Shown here piece after piece: positions 59,620 to 64,000 of a DNA stretch of 64,000 bases. The notes under the pieces are model-generated. The model had not been told where the DNA came from. It did no database searches and saw nothing but the letters and a program-made list of their open reading frames with translations. The position numbers and the translations under genes are program-made. How positions within the stretch are numbered: position 1 is the stretch's first letter; the number at the start of each line of letters is the position of its first letter. Source of the DNA: Naegleria gruberi (taxonomy: Eukaryota); assembly GCA_000004985.1 (NCBI GenBank), contig GG738923.1; one strand, given 5' to 3'.

Positions 59620-59620
59620 T

Positions 59621-59779
59621 GATATCACTCATATTATCACATCATCATCGAGAATTACACCAGAGATTGCCAAACTTGTTTCAGAAAATCCACAAGTCAA
59701 TGTAGTTTCTTCTGAGTGGATCTGGCATTCAATCAACACAAGTACTTTAATCGATTGGAGACTCTACCAAATTAAGTAA
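59621..59779 (+). CDS. 3' terminal fragment of a + strand protein-coding gene that continues into the gap (hypothetical protein, C-terminus ...LIDWRLYQIK*)
   Basis: One frame is open from the gap edge for 52 codons (DITHIITSSSRITPEIAKLVSENPQVNVVSSEWIWHSINTSTLIDWRLYQIK) and ends at TAA 59777-59779. The other two + frames hit stops almost at once. The variant poly(A) signal ATTAAA sits at 59783-59788. An open frame of this length in AT-rich DNA is suggestive but not conclusive. Confidence 0.3.
   Translation, partial: DITHIITSSSRITPEIAKLVSENPQVNVVSSEWIWHSINTSTLIDWRLYQIK
59754..59779. repeat. Copy 1 of a 26-bp dispersed repeat ATTGgAGACTCTACCAAATtAAGTAA (here it is the last codons plus stop of the upstream gene)
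   Basis: It matches 62023-62048 at 24 of 26 positions; the two mismatches are g/t and t/c. Confidence 0.6.
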
Positions 59780-59782
59780 ATT

Positions 59783-59788
59783 ATTAAA
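59783..59788 (+). promoter_or_regulatory. Candidate polyadenylation signal (ATTAAA variant) for the upstream + strand gene
   Basis: ATTAAA hexamer four nt after the TAA stop of the partial ORF. Confidence 0.25.
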
Positions 59789-59841
59789 TATTACATTATA
59801 GAAATTCTATATTTTGGATTTTATATTCTTTTAATTGTTAT

Positions 59842-59847
59842 TTTATT
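59842..59847 (-). promoter_or_regulatory. Candidate polyadenylation signal (AATAAA on - strand) for the 59852..60322 gene
   Basis: Plus-strand TTTATT at 59842-59847 reads AATAAA on the minus strand, immediately 3' of the TAG stop at 59854-59852. Confidence 0.3.
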
Positions 59848-59851
59848 GTTT

Positions 59852-60322
59852 CTAAACTTCATGAGCTGAATATTGATTTCCTTCCATTCTAATCTTTTGG
59901 GAAAACCATGAATTCTCTAATACATAAGTAACATCAGACTCTTGAGATAATCTCTGTAAAACACTTCTCAATTCTTGTTTATATTTAATTGACATTAAAA
60001 TGAGAGCAATAGAGTGAGCAATTAAAAGCAAGGAAATACCTATTGCCAATAGAGAACCGACCAAAATTGGTTGTGAAGTATCATACTTCTTCAAGGTAGA
60101 AAAACCACTAACAGCAGCCATCAAAGCGAGAGAATTAATTGTCACGAGGGTGGAAACCGATATTGTTTGAATTGTAATTGGCCCAACATGTTTTATGGCA
60201 CACTTATTAATTTGTTCCAAGTGTGAGTCGAAGGTCTCTGGAGCGAGAATGCTTGAAAACTGGGAAGGAAATTCGCTGGTAAATTGCTTTGCAGATCTAT
60301 CGAAAGGAATGAGGGCTTGCAT
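59852..60322 (-). CDS. Hypothetical small membrane protein (~156 aa, two predicted C-terminal transmembrane helices)
   Basis: The track ORF 59852..60427 'starts' at a TTG (revcomp of caa at 60425-60427), not an ATG. The first real ATG is revcomp of 'cat' at 60320-60322, giving MQALIPFDRSAKQF...SAHEV. It is preceded by CACCAAAAAAA, the same A-run context seen at the other two gene starts. Two hydrophobic stretches (ITIQTISVSTLVTINSLALMAAVSGF and ILVGSLLAIGISLLLIAHSIALILMSI) look like TM helices. The stop is TAG. I do not recognise the family. Confidence 0.5.
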   Translation of the reverse strand: MQALIPFDRSAKQFTSEFPSQFSSILAPETFDSHLEQINKCAIKHVGPITIQTISVSTLVTINSLALMAAVSGFSTLKKYDTSQPILVGSLLAIGISLLLIAHSIALILMSIKYKQELRSVLQRLSQESDVTYVLENSWFSQKIRMEGNQYSAHEV

Positions 60323-60587
60323 TTTTTTTGGTGAATTATTGCAATGTTTAATTGGAAGCCAATTCACTCCTGATGATTGGAAAGCTGAGTTGAACAATTC
60401 TACATGGCAATTAACATAAACTGCCAATTAAATACTTAATTAATAAAATTGAATTAAATATGTACTTAAAGTGGAAACCATTACACAGGTATTGGATGCT
60501 GCAAGAAGAAAGGGTTTTTCCACATGAAATAGAGTGTTTCATTAGTATTCATAATTAAAGACATGATTGCAATATTCACATAACAAA

Positions 60588-61769
60588 TCATTCAAACTGA
60601 AAATAGCAATCAGTGAGTATTGATTGATTTCTAAGATAAGTAGCTAACTTGGGATAAATGACTGCTGAAAATGTTTTGTAAAAAACAACTGTACTTGAAT
60701 GTGCAGTAATTTGATAATTGTTTCCAGGAATTCCATCAAATTCTTTTGAAGCATCCACCACAAATCTCATATTATGACTATTGCTTATCGCATAAAATAA
60801 GCCATTGAATTCAATAAAGAATATATCCTTAATATATCTAATCTTTGCATTGTCTGAATTGGATTCAGAAAATTTTGGATAACAGCTCAAAAACTGTTTC
60901 AAATTCTTATATTCCAGCATTGCACTTCCATATAACATGTAATTCTCATAAGTTGGAGTAGTGTTTGCAAATCTCACTACCGAGCAATCGTATCCTCCAA
61001 AAGCTTCAGAAATTTTCATTTCATAATCCACAGAAAAATGTGCGGTACCTTCAGTATGTGGCATCTGATTACTTCCATTATCTCCACAAAACATTACAGT
61101 ATCATCTTCAAATATTACAAAAAATTGAAAGCTTCCACATTCAATTTTCTTAATTTTCTTTTCACAACAAAACTGGCTTACATGCCAACCCATTACCGTG
61201 TGAACAGAATGCACCCAATCCTGACCTGAAATTCTAATATCACAGTAATCCAAAACGATTATTGTAAAGGAATAACATGATGCAATATGTGTAATTTGAT
61301 GTCTGTATCCATTTACGGTCGGAGGAGTGTAAAGGAGAGTAAATTTCTCCGTACCATCCTCATTCATACAATGACGATTACCTCCAAAACAATCATAGGC
61401 CGTACTGCCACTTCCATAGAGAAATGTATTATTCATCTCATCACGAACCAAATAAAGTGTTGATCCCTCCGAAAATGTCGAAACATCTTCAATCAATAAT
61501 TTTCCATTTGTTGTAGTGTCGAGAAGATAAGGAACTTGAATTGGTATGTTACTACTGCTGCTACTACTATCAAAACCATCTTTAAAAATATAAACCTGAC
61601 CACTCTCCGATAGGACATGTACACTTGTCTGATTGATTACAACTTTTTTAATTCTCTCAAAATTGGGAATGTTAATGGTTTTGCAAGTGTTCGTATTTAC
61701 AATATGAAAGGGTTCTTGGTGATTGGTTGATGATCTATCGTTGGCGTGATCGTGGTAGATTTTGAGCAT
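60588..61769 (-). CDS. Intronless 393-aa protein with divergent RCC1-like (regulator of chromosome condensation-type) beta-propeller repeats (hypothetical)
   Basis: A 1182-nt uninterrupted ORF starts at a true ATG (revcomp of cat 61767-61769) preceded by 11 consecutive A's on the coding strand, and ends at TGA (60590-60588). The translation shows tandem blades of roughly 50-60 aa, such as TSVHVLSESGQVYIFKDG, STLYLVRDEMNNTFLYGSGSTAYDCFGGN, ITHIASCYSFTIIVLD..IRISGQD and KKIECGSFQFFVIFEDDTVMFCGDNGSNQ. These fit the RCC1 pattern [I/V]xxGxxH[ST]xxL(x)DGxVYxWGxNxxGQLG only loosely, and several consensus H/G positions are missing. The shadow ORFs on the + strand (60965..61153, 61038..61229) are embedded and discounted. 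Confidence 0.7.
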   Translation of the reverse strand: MLKIYHDHANDRSSTNHQEPFHIVNTNTCKTINIPNFERIKKVVINQTSVHVLSESGQVYIFKDGFDSSSSSSNIPIQVPYLLDTTTNGKLLIEDVSTFSEGSTLYLVRDEMNNTFLYGSGSTAYDCFGGNRHCMNEDGTEKFTLLYTPPTVNGYRHQITHIASCYSFTIIVLDYCDIRISGQDWVHSVHTVMGWHVSQFCCEKKIKKIECGSFQFFVIFEDDTVMFCGDNGSNQMPHTEGTAHFSVDYEMKISEAFGGYDCSVVRFANTTPTYENYMLYGSAMLEYKNLKQFLSCYPKFSESNSDNAKIRYIKDIFFIEFNGLFYAISNSHNMRFVVDASKEFDGIPGNNYQITAHSSTVVFYKTFSAVIYPKLATYLRNQSILTDCYFQFE

Positions 61770-62125
61770 TTTTTTTTTTTGATAATTTTTGTTTTTGAGT
61801 TGACTGTGAACTTGATTACAAAAATCTCAATTTCTTAAAGGAACAATATTATGTATTTCATAATAAGAATATCAAAGCTCATAAGATTCTCCATAATTGT
61901 CAAAAAAATAACTGACAAATAAAGAAATACTATCAACACTTGATAAATTCATTAAAGTGAGGAAGATAAGCGTCGCTGTCTAGGGACCCTTAAACAAATG
62001 GGGTTTTGATATTCTCATGCTAATTGTAGACTCTACCAAATCAAGTAATTTGATATTTTATAAATTTCCTTTTAAAGCAATTCTACAAATTCTCCAAAAT
62101 CAAAAACAACAACTCTCAAAAAAAA
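61770..62125. promoter_or_regulatory. Divergent (bidirectional) intergenic promoter region between the - strand 393-aa gene and the + strand 62126 gene
   Basis: A 356-bp AT-rich spacer is flanked by two outward-facing ATG starts. It contains an 11-nt T/A homopolymer abutting the 61769 start, an A-run directly before the 62126 ATG, a GC-rich island at 61961-61990 (ggaagataagcgtcgctgtctagggaccct) with a GATA-type motif AGATAAG, and copy 2 of the 26-bp repeat. Confidence 0.45.
62023..62048. repeat. Copy 2 of the 26-bp repeat ATTGtAGACTCTACCAAATcAAGTAA (intergenic, about 78 bp upstream of the 62126 ATG)
   Basis: It matches 59754-59779 at 24 of 26 positions. In copy 2 the same RLYQIK* frame is closed by a TGA only 12 codons upstream, so here it is not the end of an intact CDS. 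Confidence 0.6.
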
Positions 62126-62375
62126 ATGTTAAAAGATAAATGCATTGAAGTGATGGAACAAGTGTATGGTAAATTCAGTGGAGCACACTACAAACCCAAA
62201 CCATTGAAATCTGCAACACAAACTCGATACTTGTGGACTGATGCGTTTGCAGTTTGCAATTTCCTTTCGTTGCATGTGGAAAGTGGTCAAGATTCGTATT
62301 TGGAACAAGCTAAGGCACTTATTGAAGAGGTGCATCAAGTTCTTGGAAAGGATCGTTCATTGCAACATTATTTGG
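62126..62375 (+). CDS. Exon 1 of a hypothetical protein gene (MLKDKCIEVMEQVYGKF...DRSLQHYLG), donor G|GTAAGC
   Basis: ATG at 62126-62128 is preceded by CTCAAAAAAAA. The ORF has coding-like composition. A canonical GTAAG 5' splice site begins at 62376 and leaves a phase-1 exon end. The unspliced alternative is the 147-aa ORF 62126..62569 from the track. 'RYLWTDAFAV' faintly recalls the W-T-R-D-S-A region of (alpha/alpha)6-barrel glycoside hydrolases, but this is weak and unverified. Confidence 0.45.
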
Positions 62376-63201
62376 GTAAGCACATGCAGTTTCTAATAAC
62401 TAATCTAATAAATCGACGAAAGGAAAATCCAATGCTGAACATCCCCTATTGGGAGGTTTACGAATTGGCAAGGAAGCCGATGAAGATGACGAAGATGGCG
62501 ATGGTCAATGTTATAGGCGAAAAAAAACTGCCTGACAAACCATGCAAAAAAAACTGTTCGCATAATTGAGCTATGCGAAAAATATCTTTGGATATACCGA
62601 TCCTTAGTTATAATCAATCAACAAGAACTTGGAAAAATATTTCAAAAATATTGACAACAAGTAAGTCCATCACGACTCTGTTGATTCTTGGAGTAGTTTC
62701 ACATCTATTAACTCCAAGAATTTCACCACATCATCTCATCATCATTTAAATAGTAGTATTAATAGTAATTTTTGGAATTTAATTGTTCATCATGATTTGG
62801 AAATAATTTTATTATTTGGAAAAATTCAAGTTGGTACATCATCATCGGAACAACTACCAACCATCATCATTGTTATTTATCATCATTATAATAGTAATAT
62901 TTGTGGAAATAAATCTGATAATAATAATATTTTAGTGAAATTCAATATTTTCACTAAAATCATCATCACTGCCCGATTTATATGATAATTTGGAAAACTT
63001 TCAATCTAGTATTGTTCAGCATAGTCGATTCCATCAGGTAAAATTACTTCCGAATATTTTCCTATTGGTTATCATGATGATAGGTTCATGTATATTTTCA
63101 ACATGTACATATACCATATCTCAACATGTACTTCACCAACTTGAAAAATGTCTTTCGTCACTACTATTCAAATACATAATAAACAATATATTTATTATCA
63201 G
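62376..63201 (+). other. Putative intron (GTAAGC...TTATCAG), 826 nt
   Basis: The GTAAG donor at 62376 and the acceptor tttattatcag| at 63200-63201 are phase-compatible (phase 1). The interior is AT-rich with CAT/ATC microsatellite-like tracts, a 12-bp hairpin and only short low-complexity ORFs (62797..62985, 62990..63310). However, 62404-62535 has coding-like composition, and there are additional candidate splice sites, so the true structure may include an extra exon. Confidence 0.35.
62929..62960. repeat. Perfect inverted repeat / hairpin (12-bp stem ATTTTAGTGAAA / TTTCACTAAAAT, 8-nt loop TTCAATAT)
   Basis: Read directly: 62929-62940 attttagtgaaa, loop 62941-62948, 62949-62960 tttcactaaaat. 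The right arm is the exact reverse complement of the left arm. Confidence 0.6.
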
Positions 63202-63932
63202 ATTTTTATCATTTTGTGTTTTTGCCAACTTCGATTCATGCCTATCTCACCAAATGGATGTTTGCCCTCAACAGAACGTCACTAATCACTCGAGATGTCA
63301 AATACAATGAATGGGCAATTGAAATGGCCCAATCCATGCATAACAAGTTTATCAATCATAGTTCTTCACGTGGATTGAGGATGTTCTGGAAGATTTCTAT
63401 TGATGGTTCGAGACCAGTTGTGAGATCTGAAGGAAATTTGGATCCTTATGATGGTTATGTTACTTATAGACTTTTACAATTGGTCAACCAGCAATTAAAA
63501 GAAGGAAAGAATGTGGATGGAAGTGTTTTGAATAGAGAAATTGAAGAAATGAAGGGAATGGTGATGGGAAAGTATTTAATGTATCAGAGTTCAGATCCTC
63601 TGGATTTGGGAGAAACTCTTTGGTTGACCAGTTGGTTTCCTGATGAAGATTGGGCGAATCATATGAGAAAAGTTGCCATTTCTAATATAGAAGAGATATT
63701 CGAAAGCACGATTAAGAGTACAAGAAGAAGATTAGGTTTCAGAGACTTTGGTGTTTCGATTGGATTGCAAACTATTCCAGAAAATGAACAAGATGGAGAA
63801 ACTAGACGAATTGTTGAGAATATTCACTCCCTATGGAAAGATCATCTATTCGAAAGAGATCATGACATAACTCCGGTCATGTACTGTTCATCTCTTTTAC
63901 CTGGCGTCTTCAATCCCAACTTTCTTTATTAG
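63202..63932 (+). CDS. Exon 2 (terminal) of the same hypothetical protein gene (...DFYHFVFLPTSIHAYLTKWMFALNRT...VFNPNFLY*)
   Basis: The track ORF 63216..63932 starts at GTG, not ATG. The frame is open back to a TAA at 63177-63179. The first in-frame ATG (63258) lacks the A-run context of the other three starts. The phase-1 acceptor CAG at 63201 joins it in frame to exon 1. The stop is TAG 63930-63932, followed at once by AATAAATAAA. If the ORF is independent instead, its CDS would be 63258..63932. Confidence 0.5.
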
Positions 63933-63934
63933 AA

Positions 63935-63944
63935 AATAAATAAA
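63935..63944 (+). promoter_or_regulatory. Tandem AATAAA polyadenylation signals downstream of the 63932 stop
   Basis: The sequence tagAAAATAAATAAAttttta contains AATAAA at 63935-63940 and again at 63939-63944, two to twelve nt after the stop codon. Confidence 0.45.
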
Positions 63945-64000
63945 TTTTTAAACAACCATCAATTATTAAACAATATATTATTGTAAAAATTACAAATGCA

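What the first reader, a model, noticed from the sequence alone, without database searches (positions are those of the whole stretch)
62126..63932. Split-gene model across an unusually long intron for this compact locus
The evidence for splicing is fourfold. A GTAAG donor sits exactly where exon 1 could end (62376). The downstream 243-codon ORF is open upstream of its first ATG. The CAG acceptor at 63201 gives in-frame joining at phase 1. The 63258 ATG lacks the A-run start context. Against this, an 826-nt intron is long when neighbouring genes are intronless and intergenic spacers are 70-360 bp, and exon 1 also reads through the donor as a 147-aa ORF. The joined product is about 327 aa and is unrecognised. 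A weak W-T-D-A motif reminiscent of (alpha/alpha)6 glycosidases is noted only as a lead.
Basis: partly seen in the sequence, partly recalled or inferred. Interest (0 to 1): 0.5.

Follow-up and report, generated by a model that had tools for sequence, protein, structure and literature searches.

The report
Mis-joined gene hiding a recent insertion
The proposed 826-base intron in this Naegleria gruberi gene is really a conserved 47-base intron, a skipped 87-base coding exon and a roughly 700-base insertion that a 99%-identical relative lacks; this corrects the public gene model and may capture an intron at birth, or simply a broken allele.

Summary
The join is nevertheless wrong.

- **Short intron.** The GTAAG donor at 62376 pairs with an AAG acceptor at 62422. 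This 47-nt, phase-1 intron sits at the same codon in three other Naegleria genomes.
- **Skipped exon.** 62423-62509 encodes GKSNAEHPLLGGLRIGKEADEDDEDGDGQ, which holds 10 of the family's 47 invariant residues. Including it raises the family-profile score from 406 bits (two fragments) to 471 bits (one match).
- **Insertion.** The rest of the "intron" is specific to this strain or haplotype. Contig L004, about 99% identical in coding sequence, reads straight through as DGDGQYFHYLTKW. So do N. lovaniensis, a third Naegleria and Willaertia. The window carries a net 725 extra bases there.
- **Fate unresolved.** A 692-nt block (62510-63201) begins with GT, ends with AG, and its removal restores Q-Y-F in frame. 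It leaves 11 extra residues that displace an invariant His, and its donor GTTATA is poor. New intron and null allele are about equally likely.
- **Protein.** It belongs to a large, unnamed, eukaryote-wide (alpha/alpha)6-barrel family.

The parts
62126..62375 (+). Exon 1 (250 nt, 83 codons plus 1 nt). Starts at an ATG with an A-run context.
   Evidence: Translation. Orthologues P0003 and P0004 begin MLKKCIEVME, which supports this ATG over the public model's 62153. Matches profile positions 21-101.
62376..62422 (+). Intron 1: 47 nt, phase 1, GTAAGC...CGAAAG, with CTAAT branch-like motifs.
   Evidence: An intron sits in the same Gly codon and phase in N. lovaniensis (53 nt, GTACGT..AAG), Naegleria sp. 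L003 (67 nt, GTATGT..AAG) and L004 (50 nt). Willaertia has none. Against L004 it has 3 substitutions and 3 indels in about 50 nt, whereas the exons differ by about 1%.
62423..62509 (+). Exon 2 (87 nt), encoding G-KSNAEHPLLGGLRIGKEADEDDEDGDGQ-(Y).
   Evidence: Frame seen. Every orthologue has this segment. Family-invariant residues P91, G95-K100, D110-Q112 and junctional Y113 lie here. Including it adds 65 bits. GC is 46%, against 28% in the insert.
62510..63201 (+). 692-nt GT...AG-bounded block (GTTATAGG...TTATTATCAG). It is the candidate new intron and forms the bulk of the lineage-specific insertion.
   Evidence: Absent from L004 and from L001, L002 and L003. GC is 28%. No Rfam family, no TIR or TSD, no protein similarity in six frames. 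Removal gives CAA T|AT TTT = Q-Y-F, as in the empty allele. The donor scores 5/9.
63202..63242 (+). Extra sequence retained after the CAG acceptor: a net 33 nt (11 codons, YHFVFLPTSI plus A) around the invariant His of DGDGQYFHYLTKW.
   Evidence: The empty allele has ACTTTCAC here. All 107 anchored homologues have exactly 4 residues between DGQ and LTKW; this product would have 15. The 17-mer at 63202-63218 matches the purine/pyrimidine pattern of the target at 16/17 and is unique among 8730 17-mers. A gapped alignment is not significant.
63243..63932 (+). Remaining coding sequence (YLTKWMFALNR...NFLY, stop TAG at 63930-63932).
   Evidence: 691 nt align to L004 with 8 mismatches, all synonymous. 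Matches profile positions 131-351.
62533..62535 (+). In-frame TGA, met if the insert is not removed at 62510. It would truncate the product at 120 aa.
62661..62666 (+). Cryptic consensus donor CAA|GTAAGT inside the insert. It is stronger than the 62510 donor, and its use would give a nonsense transcript.
   Evidence: Donor scoring; isoform translations.

Best explanation
**Organism and protein.** This is the Naegleria gruberi gene NAEGRDRAFT_54059. It encodes a roughly 345-355-aa member of a eukaryote-wide, unnamed (alpha/alpha)6-barrel family.

**Shown.** The coding sequence lies in three pieces.
- Exon 1 is 62126-62375.
- A conserved 47-nt phase-1 intron is 62376-62422.
- An 87-nt exon is 62423-62509.
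- The rest of the coding sequence follows from 63202/63243 to 63932.

It pairs the donor of the short intron with the only usable acceptor upstream of the last ORF, and so deletes 29 conserved residues.

The interruption between 62509 and 63243 is not ancestral. It is a net +725-nt insertion into what is a single continuous exon in a 99%-identical allele or strain and in every orthologue examined.

**Inferred.** I take the insertion to be non-coding filler DNA acquired recently, probably during error-prone break repair. Its 692-nt core is bounded exactly by GT and AG at the CAAT^AYTTT point. The spliceosome could therefore remove it as a newly born intron, giving a 355-aa protein with an 11-residue insert at the start of a core helix.

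**How likely.** I give the structural part about 0.9. I give productive splicing at 62510/63201 about 0.45-0.5.
For: **Structure**
- Orthologue sequences all contain the skipped segment.
- Profile scores are 471.2 bits (three exons, one match), 462.1 (donor at 62504) and 406.0 (two exons, two pieces).
- 11 of 47 invariant columns fall in or at the edge of the skipped exon.
- The short intron's position and phase are shared in L001, L003 and L004.

**Insertion**
- P0132 and L004 read GGT CAA TAC TTT CAC TAT CTC ACC, with no interruption, while keeping intron 1.
- N. lovaniensis, L003 and Willaertia are also uninterrupted there.
- All 107 anchored homologues have the 4-residue spacing.
- The insert has non-coding composition.

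**Intron-like nature**
- The block starts with GT exactly at the first base that differs from the empty site.
- It ends with AG, followed by ATTTT against ACTTT in the empty site.
- Excision therefore restores Q-Y-F and the reading frame.
- This is the only isoform that gives a full-length ORF.

**Selection**
- Differences from L004 are 9 synonymous and 1 non-synonymous, with dN/dS about 0.03.
- The allele has therefore been under constraint for nearly all of its separate history.
Against: - No transcript evidence is available. No spliced N. gruberi product is in the protein collection.
- The donor AAT|GTTATA matches only 5/9 consensus positions. It lacks the A at +3 and G at +5 seen in 7 of 7 Naegleria donors sampled.
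- A far better cryptic donor at 62661 would give a nonsense mRNA.
- The 11 residues left behind are unique in the family. They sit at the first turn of helix 114-131 of the high-confidence model and shift the invariant His115 relative to YLTKW.
- An in-frame GT-AG solution in a random AT-rich insert is not very improbable. I estimate about 30-40%; this is not a computed figure.
- The degenerate target-copy signal is post hoc and fails a shuffle-controlled alignment test.
Confidence: 0.5

Rival explanations
1. **Null or hypomorphic allele.** The same structure applies (short conserved intron plus skipped exon), but the 725-nt insertion simply breaks the gene in this haplotype of the clonal laboratory strain NEG-M. 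Transcripts either retain it, meeting the stop at 62533, or use the strong cryptic donor at 62661, and are then degraded. Function is supplied by the other haplotype (XP_002668309 on a 7.3-kb scaffold).
For: - The 62510 donor is weak and stronger cryptic donors lie inside the insert.
- Every isoform other than 62509|63202 stops after 120 aa.
- The leftover 11 residues disturb an invariant motif found in 107 of 107 homologues.
- A second NEG-M copy exists, and its partial model starts about 34 nt right of the insert end. This would fit a haplotype break at a heterozygous indel.
- The public pipeline could not find a normal model here.
Against: - The insert's core is bounded exactly by GT and AG, and its excision restores frame and Q-Y-F. 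My rough estimate puts the chance of this at about 1% or less.
- There are no non-synonymous changes, frameshifts or stops in 690 nt of downstream coding sequence. If the allele is null, it must therefore be very young.
Confidence: 0.38
2. **The reader's and public model is correct.** A single 826-nt intron (62376-63201) is spliced, giving a 326-aa protein (317 aa from the second ATG).
For: It has GT-AG termini and an in-frame phase-1 join. It is identical to XP_002669722.
Against: - It deletes 29 residues, including invariant GGLRIGK and DGDGQ.
- The profile match breaks in two and loses 65 bits.
- The skipped DNA encodes exactly the missing peptide, in frame, after a conserved short intron.
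- In the model, the deleted loop (residues 74-113) is confidently placed.
Confidence: 0.03
3. **Assembly artefact.** The 733-nt segment was wrongly placed in the NEG-M scaffold, and the real locus looks like L004.
For: A second, fragmentary scaffold carries the same gene and breaks near this point. The insert matches nothing else that could be searched.
Against: Both flanks continue seamlessly into the correct gene on the same strand. The junction shows local rearrangement (the extra 33 nt) rather than a clean chimaera. This could not be tested directly.
Confidence: 0.05
4. **Transposable or introner-like element.** The insert is one copy of a mobile family that generates introns.
For: It is a discrete block with GT...AG ends inserted in an exon. 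It contains a 23-nt hairpin at 62557-62579.
Against: - No terminal inverted repeats: score 27 against 18.8 +/- 3.7 in shuffles.
- No target-site duplication of 5 nt or more, and no poly(A).
- No coding similarity in six frames.
- No second copy in the window, in the orthologous loci, or in the JGI metagenome and IMG/VR contigs.
- The N. gruberi genome itself could not be searched.
Confidence: 0.04

Closest known systems
Intron presence/absence polymorphisms and recent intron gains (Daphnia pulex populations, Zymoseptoria and other fungi; break-repair model of intron gain). Recalled from memory, not checked here.
   Same: An exon that is continuous in close relatives is interrupted in one lineage by unrelated non-coding DNA. 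The interruption is bounded by GT...AG, shows small local sequence irregularities at the junction, and has no recognisable source.
   Different: Splicing is not demonstrated here. The donor is poor. Excision would not restore the original mRNA but would leave 33 extra nucleotides. Only one locus is known, and there are no population data.
Introner or introner-like elements (Micromonas, Aureococcus, fungi). Recalled from memory.
   Same: An inserted block could be spliced out as a unit.
   Different: There is no evidence of a multi-copy family, no TIR and no TSD. Membership is not supported.
Gene-model errors in first-generation eukaryote annotations (exon skipping across a short intron)
   Same: The public model XP_002669722 bridges a short intron, a small exon and an insertion with one long intron. 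It also starts at a downstream ATG.
   Different: Nothing unusual; this is the ordinary part of the finding.
AGE superfamily (cellobiose 2-epimerase, N-acylglucosamine 2-epimerase, YihS isomerases) and the GH76 / GH8 (alpha/alpha)6-barrel enzymes
   Different: Identity is only 7-12%. No Pfam model matches. No one family stands out, and catalytic residues were not compared. It is a separate, uncharacterised, eukaryote-wide family with more than 7000 homologues.

Membership tests
U2-type spliceosomal intron: 62376-62422 | GT...AG termini and a consensus-like donor | tested here: met
   GTAAGC...AAG. Donor scores 6/9 with the GTAAG core intact.
U2-type spliceosomal intron: 62376-62422 | Removal joins conserved coding sequence in frame; position and phase shared with orthologues | tested here: met
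   Same Gly codon and phase 1 in L001, L003 and L004. Gain of 65 bits.
U2-type spliceosomal intron: 62376-62422 | Evolves as non-coding sequence (indels, stops, faster divergence) | tested here: met
   3 substitutions and 3 indels against L004 in about 50 nt, compared with about 1% in the exons. The read-through frame is closed in L004.
U2-type spliceosomal intron: 62376-62422 | Spliced junction observed in RNA | not testable with these tools
   No N. gruberi transcript data are reachable. PRJEB23822 exists.
U2-type spliceosomal intron: 62510-63201 (candidate new intron) | GT...AG termini; removal keeps the frame and conserved residues | tested here: met
   CAAT|GT...CAG|AT gives Q-Y-F. It is the only full-length isoform.
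U2-type spliceosomal intron: 62510-63201 (candidate new intron) | Donor resembles the genus consensus (GTA.G) | tested here: not met
   GTTATA scores 5/9. All 7 sampled Naegleria donors have A at +3 and G at +5. The sample is small and partly read by eye.
U2-type spliceosomal intron: 62510-63201 (candidate new intron) | Spliced junction observed in RNA | not testable with these tools
   No spliced product in the collections. This is weak negative evidence only.
Transposable element / introner | Terminal inverted repeats or LTRs, and a target-site duplication | tested here: not met
Transposable element / introner | Multiple copies in the genome | not testable with these tools
   The N. gruberi assembly is not searchable here. 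There is no copy in JGI metagenome or IMG/VR contigs, nor in the held loci.
Transposable element / introner | Encodes or derives from transposase or RT sequence | tested here: not met
   A six-frame pseudo-protein search returned nothing at E <= 0.01.
AGE / cellobiose-2-epimerase family | (alpha/alpha)6-barrel fold | tested here: met
AGE / cellobiose-2-epimerase family | Match to the family's sequence model (Pfam GlcNAc_2-epim) | tested here: not met
   No Pfam hit at E <= 1 for P0004, P0005 or P0011. Only one weak PDB profile hit, at E = 0.02.
AGE / cellobiose-2-epimerase family | Catalytic His/His(/Glu) triad in equivalent positions | not tested
GH76 / GH8 glycoside hydrolases | Fold plus family sequence signature and catalytic Asp/Glu pair | tested here: inconclusive

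The most novel reading that the evidence does not exclude
The 692-nt block at 62510-63201 is a spliceosomal intron caught shortly after its birth in the N. gruberi NEG-M lineage. Its empty site is preserved in a 99%-identical relative (L004). It was created by insertion of source-less filler DNA with fortuitous GT/AG ends, and it is still imperfect: a weak donor, and 33 nt of collateral in-frame sequence inside an invariant motif. That would be a rare, directly testable example of de novo intron gain in a discoban protist.
Probability: 0.42. Interest if true: 0.6.

Novelty: new member of a known kind. Interest (0 to 1): 0.36.

Why it matters
**Practical.** The reference protein for NAEGRDRAFT_54059 (UniProt D2W1U5) lacks 29 conserved residues and its first 9 residues. 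It should be re-modelled. The published mean intron length for N. gruberi (203 bp, PMC8296547) may be inflated by similar shortcuts.

**Biological.** The locus offers a filled site and an empty site for an intron-sized, GT-AG-bounded insertion in a strongly constrained gene. A single RNA-seq mapping would show whether Naegleria can splice out such a fresh insertion, which bears on how new introns arise. If it cannot, this is simply a sheltered null allele in a laboratory strain.

**Protein family.** The family is large, eukaryote-wide, structurally confident and has no Pfam model or known function.

Tried and rejected
**Gene structure**
- The read-through 147-aa ORF is rejected. It scores no better than exon 1 alone (104.7 bits), and its frame is closed in L004.
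- Donor 62504 scores 9 bits lower and loses the invariant G-Q.
- Donor 62456 would delete GGLRIGK through DGDGQ.
- Non-canonical acceptors that would give exactly QFHAYLTKW were considered and rejected, because there is no AG between 63202 and 63271.

**Nature of the insert**
- Rfam scan of the whole real sequence: only a sub-threshold snoRNA hit, inside exon 3.
- C/D-box motifs sought by eye in the insert: none convincing.
- TIR, TSD and poly(A) search: negative.
- Similarity of the insert to the rest of the window and to L001-L003: chance-level only.
- Six-frame protein search of the insert: nothing.
- Scans of JGI metagenome and IMG/VR contigs for a 23-mer of the insert and a 22-mer of the left flank: nothing.
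- The extended degenerate duplication of the target is not significant against shuffles.

- Exact-protein look-ups for P0001, P0002 and three window ORFs: not on record.
- The afdb50 fold library was unavailable.
- Brute-force intron enumeration of the N. lovaniensis kinase gene timed out.
- The Erf4-like neighbour needs no intron, because an A-run ATG lies near 60322.
- Literature: no paper cites PRJEB11402, and the N. gruberi genome paper is not held.
Full report
**Material.** Only 59620-64000 of the window is real sequence; everything before it is N. GC is 33%. The best protein match identifies the organism as Naegleria gruberi, whose genome is reported as 33% GC, with 1.7 exons per gene and a mean intron length of 203 bp (PMC8296547).

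**The observation.**
- GTAAG lies at 62376-62380, directly after a 250-nt exon 1 that ends in phase 1.
- CAG ends at 63201.
- The g|at join is in frame.
- The downstream frame is open upstream of its first ATG at 63258.
- Exon 1 reads through as a 147-aa ORF.

The joined product is 326 aa. The public N. gruberi model XP_002669722 / D2W1U5 (P0001, 317 aa) is this same join, started at the second ATG.

**Why the join is wrong.** The consensus is RLGxxxDxHPLLGGLRIGKxxxExxxDGDGQYFHYLTKW.

The window encodes exactly this peptide (GKSNAEHPLLGGLRIGKEADEDDEDGDGQ) at 62423-62509. It lies in the frame reached when a 47-nt intron (62376-62422, GTAAGC...AAG) is removed.

I scored the competing products against a profile HMM built from 118 homologues, with both N. 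gruberi entries excluded.

| Product | Score (bits) | Match |
|---|---|---|
| Three exons, donor at 62510 | 471.2 | one continuous match |
| Three exons, donor at 62504 | 462.1 | one continuous match |
| Two exons (reader and public model) | 406.0 | two pieces, skipping profile positions 102-130 |
| Read-through 147-aa ORF | 104.7 | no better than exon 1 alone |

Of the 47 invariant columns in a 43-sequence alignment, ten lie in the skipped exon and one (Y113) lies at its 3' junction.

**The short intron is conserved.**
- N. lovaniensis (L001) has a single 53-nt intron in the same Gly codon and the same phase.
- A third Naegleria genome from a Logan assembly (L003) has a 67-nt intron there.
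- Willaertia (L002) has none.
- In the near-identical contig L004 the intron is 50 nt. It differs from the window by three substitutions and three indels, while the flanking exons are about 99% identical. The read-through frame hits two stops seven codons after the donor.

The GTAAG donor is therefore real, but its partner is the AG at 62421-62422, not the one at 63200-63201.

**The long piece is an insertion.** The 90% cluster of the second N. gruberi entry (P0002) contains a hidden member, P0132. It comes from a 1,145-nt contig of an ENA metagenome assembly (ERZ929261, L004).

L004 retains intron 1, so it is genomic DNA. It differs from the window at 8 of 691 aligned exon-3 positions. It reads GAT GGT CAA TAC TTT CAC TAT CTC ACC AAA TGG (DGQYFHYLTKW) with no interruption.

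The window instead has CAAT[GTTATAGG ... ATTCATGCC]TATCTCACC. Depending on how one shared C is placed, 732-733 nt replace 7-8 nt, a net gain of 725 nt.

N. lovaniensis, L003 and Willaertia are also uninterrupted at this point. All 107 homologues in which the motif could be anchored have exactly four residues (Y[F/Y]HY) between DGQ and LTKW. The empty state is therefore ancestral, and the insertion arose in the lineage or haplotype of the reference strain.

**What the insert is.**
- Its composition is non-coding: 28% GC, against 37-46% in the exons and 26% in the upstream spacer.
- It matches no Rfam family.
- It has no significant terminal inverted repeat, no target-site duplication and no poly(A) tail.
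- It has no similarity to the rest of the window or to the orthologous loci.
- It has no protein similarity in any of six frames.
- It has no second copy in JGI metagenome or IMG/VR contigs.
- The N. gruberi genome itself could not be searched, so copy number remains unknown.

**Can it be spliced? Evidence for.**
- The most parsimonious alignment of the two alleles is a 692-nt block inserted exactly between CAAT and AYTTT, followed by in-frame insertions of 30 nt and 3 nt and two synonymous transitions.
- That block begins with GT and ends with AG. Its removal gives CAA T|AT TTT (Q-Y-F), as in the empty allele.
- Of the isoforms I translated, only 62509|63202 gives a full-length ORF. Retaining the insert, or using the internal donors, stops after 120 aa.
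- I estimate that GT at the exact left boundary together with AYTTT directly after an AG would occur by chance about 1% of the time or less. This is my rough estimate, not a computed figure.
- The 17-mer after the AG matches the purine/pyrimidine pattern of the target at 16 of 17 positions and is unique among 8,730 17-mers. A gapped, shuffle-controlled alignment is not significant, however, so I treat this only as a hint.

**Can it be spliced? Evidence against.**
- The donor AAT|GTTATA matches 5 of 9 consensus positions. A cryptic CAA|GTAAGT at 62661 matches 8 of 9.
- In a small sample of Naegleria donors, all seven have A at +3 and G at +5. The sample is intron 1 in three genomes plus four introns of the neighbouring N. 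lovaniensis kinase gene read by eye. GTTATA has neither base.
- The spliced product would carry 11 extra residues (YHFVFLPTSI plus A) at the first turn of helix 114-131 of the confidently predicted orthologue structure. That changes the spacing of the invariant His115 from YLTKW.
- No transcript-derived protein spanning the junction exists in the collections searched.

**Selection.** Between the window and L004 the shared coding sequence has 9 synonymous differences and 1 non-synonymous difference (170 and 667 sites). This gives dS about 0.053, dN about 0.0015 and dN/dS about 0.03. The window's allele has therefore been constrained for nearly all of its separate history. Either the insertion is very recent or it does not abolish function. 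This result does not separate the two readings.

**Verdict on mechanism.**
- About 0.9: the locus consists of exon 1, a conserved 47-nt intron, an 87-nt exon, a lineage-specific insertion, and the remaining exon. The 826-nt intron is a prediction artefact shared with the public annotation.
- About even odds on the insert's fate. It may be removed as a newborn intron (about 0.42-0.5). It may instead make this a young null allele, sheltered by the second haplotype (about 0.38).
- The second haplotype's partial model begins only about 34 nt to the right of the insert.
- An assembly artefact (about 0.05) and a mobile element (about 0.04) are minor alternatives.

**The protein.**
- More than 7,000 homologues were found across eukaryotes, and none has a Pfam model.
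- An AlphaFold2 model of the N. lovaniensis orthologue is highly confident, with pLDDT 93.8 and pTM 0.93.
- A carbohydrate-acting function (isomerase, epimerase or hydrolase) is inferred from the fold only.

**Novelty and interest.**
- The gene-model correction is routine.
- The filled/empty pair for a GT-AG-bounded, source-less insertion in a constrained Naegleria gene is a new instance of a known phenomenon: either recent intron gain or an insertion allele.
- It is worth one RNA-seq check, and existing data (PRJEB23822; PMC6142364) would settle it.

Noticed in passing
   Followed up: yes
window 62126 vs 62153: The public model XP_002669722 starts at the second ATG (MEQVYG). Orthologues start MLKKCIEVME, and 62126 has the A-run context, so the first ATG is the likelier start.
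   Followed up: partly
window 62557-62579: A 23-nt palindromic hairpin, TTCGCATAATTGAGCTATGCGAA, lies inside the insert, flanked by two GC(G)AAAAAAAACTG repeats (62516-62530 and 62541-62554). Its meaning is unknown.
   Followed up: partly
window 62661-62666 and 63038-63043: Strong cryptic donors lie inside the insert (CAA|GTAAGT at 8/9 and CAG|GTAAAA at 7/9). Both are better than the donor needed for productive splicing.
   Followed up: yes
window 63202-63218: ATTTTTATCATTTTGTG has the same purine/pyrimidine pattern as the empty-site target ACTTTCACTATCTCACC at 16 of 17 positions, and 8 of the 9 mismatches are transitions. It is unique in the window, but a gapped shuffle test is not significant.
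   Followed up: yes
P0002 (XP_002668309, 7.3-kb scaffold), first codon = window 63276: A second, partial N. gruberi copy with one amino-acid difference (Q to K) begins about 34 nt right of the insert end. This may be the other haplotype, broken by the assembler at a heterozygous indel. Its DNA was not retrievable.
   Followed up: partly
protein family of P0003-P0120: A eukaryote-wide family of about 350 aa with more than 7000 homologues (amoebae, algae, ferns, fungi, oomycetes, rotifers, nematodes, tardigrades). It has strongly invariant motifs (RYLWTD, GGLRIGK, DGDGQYFHYLTKW, EGNLDP, DPLDLGE, AFREFG, DITPVMY). It has no Pfam model and no known function, despite a confident (alpha/alpha)6 model.
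   Followed up: partly
window 59621-59779 (+), 59852-60427 (-), 60588-61769 (-): The neighbours are a BRCT-domain C-terminus (LIG3_BRCT, E = 1e-7), an Erf4/GOLGA7-like ORF (sub-threshold) that probably starts at the A-run ATG near 60322, and a weak RCC1-like repeat protein of 393 aa. None needs an intron in the visible part.
   Followed up: partly
window 63552-63642 (+): A sub-threshold Rfam hit to snoZ157 (24.9 bits against a gathering score of 55, E = 0.095) lies inside conserved coding sequence. It is most likely chance.
   Followed up: no
L001 vs window flanks: Synteny is not conserved. In N. lovaniensis and L003 the gene lies between a 694-aa ORF and a ubiquitin-kinase gene. In N. gruberi its upstream neighbour is the RCC1-like gene on the opposite strand.
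   Followed up: no
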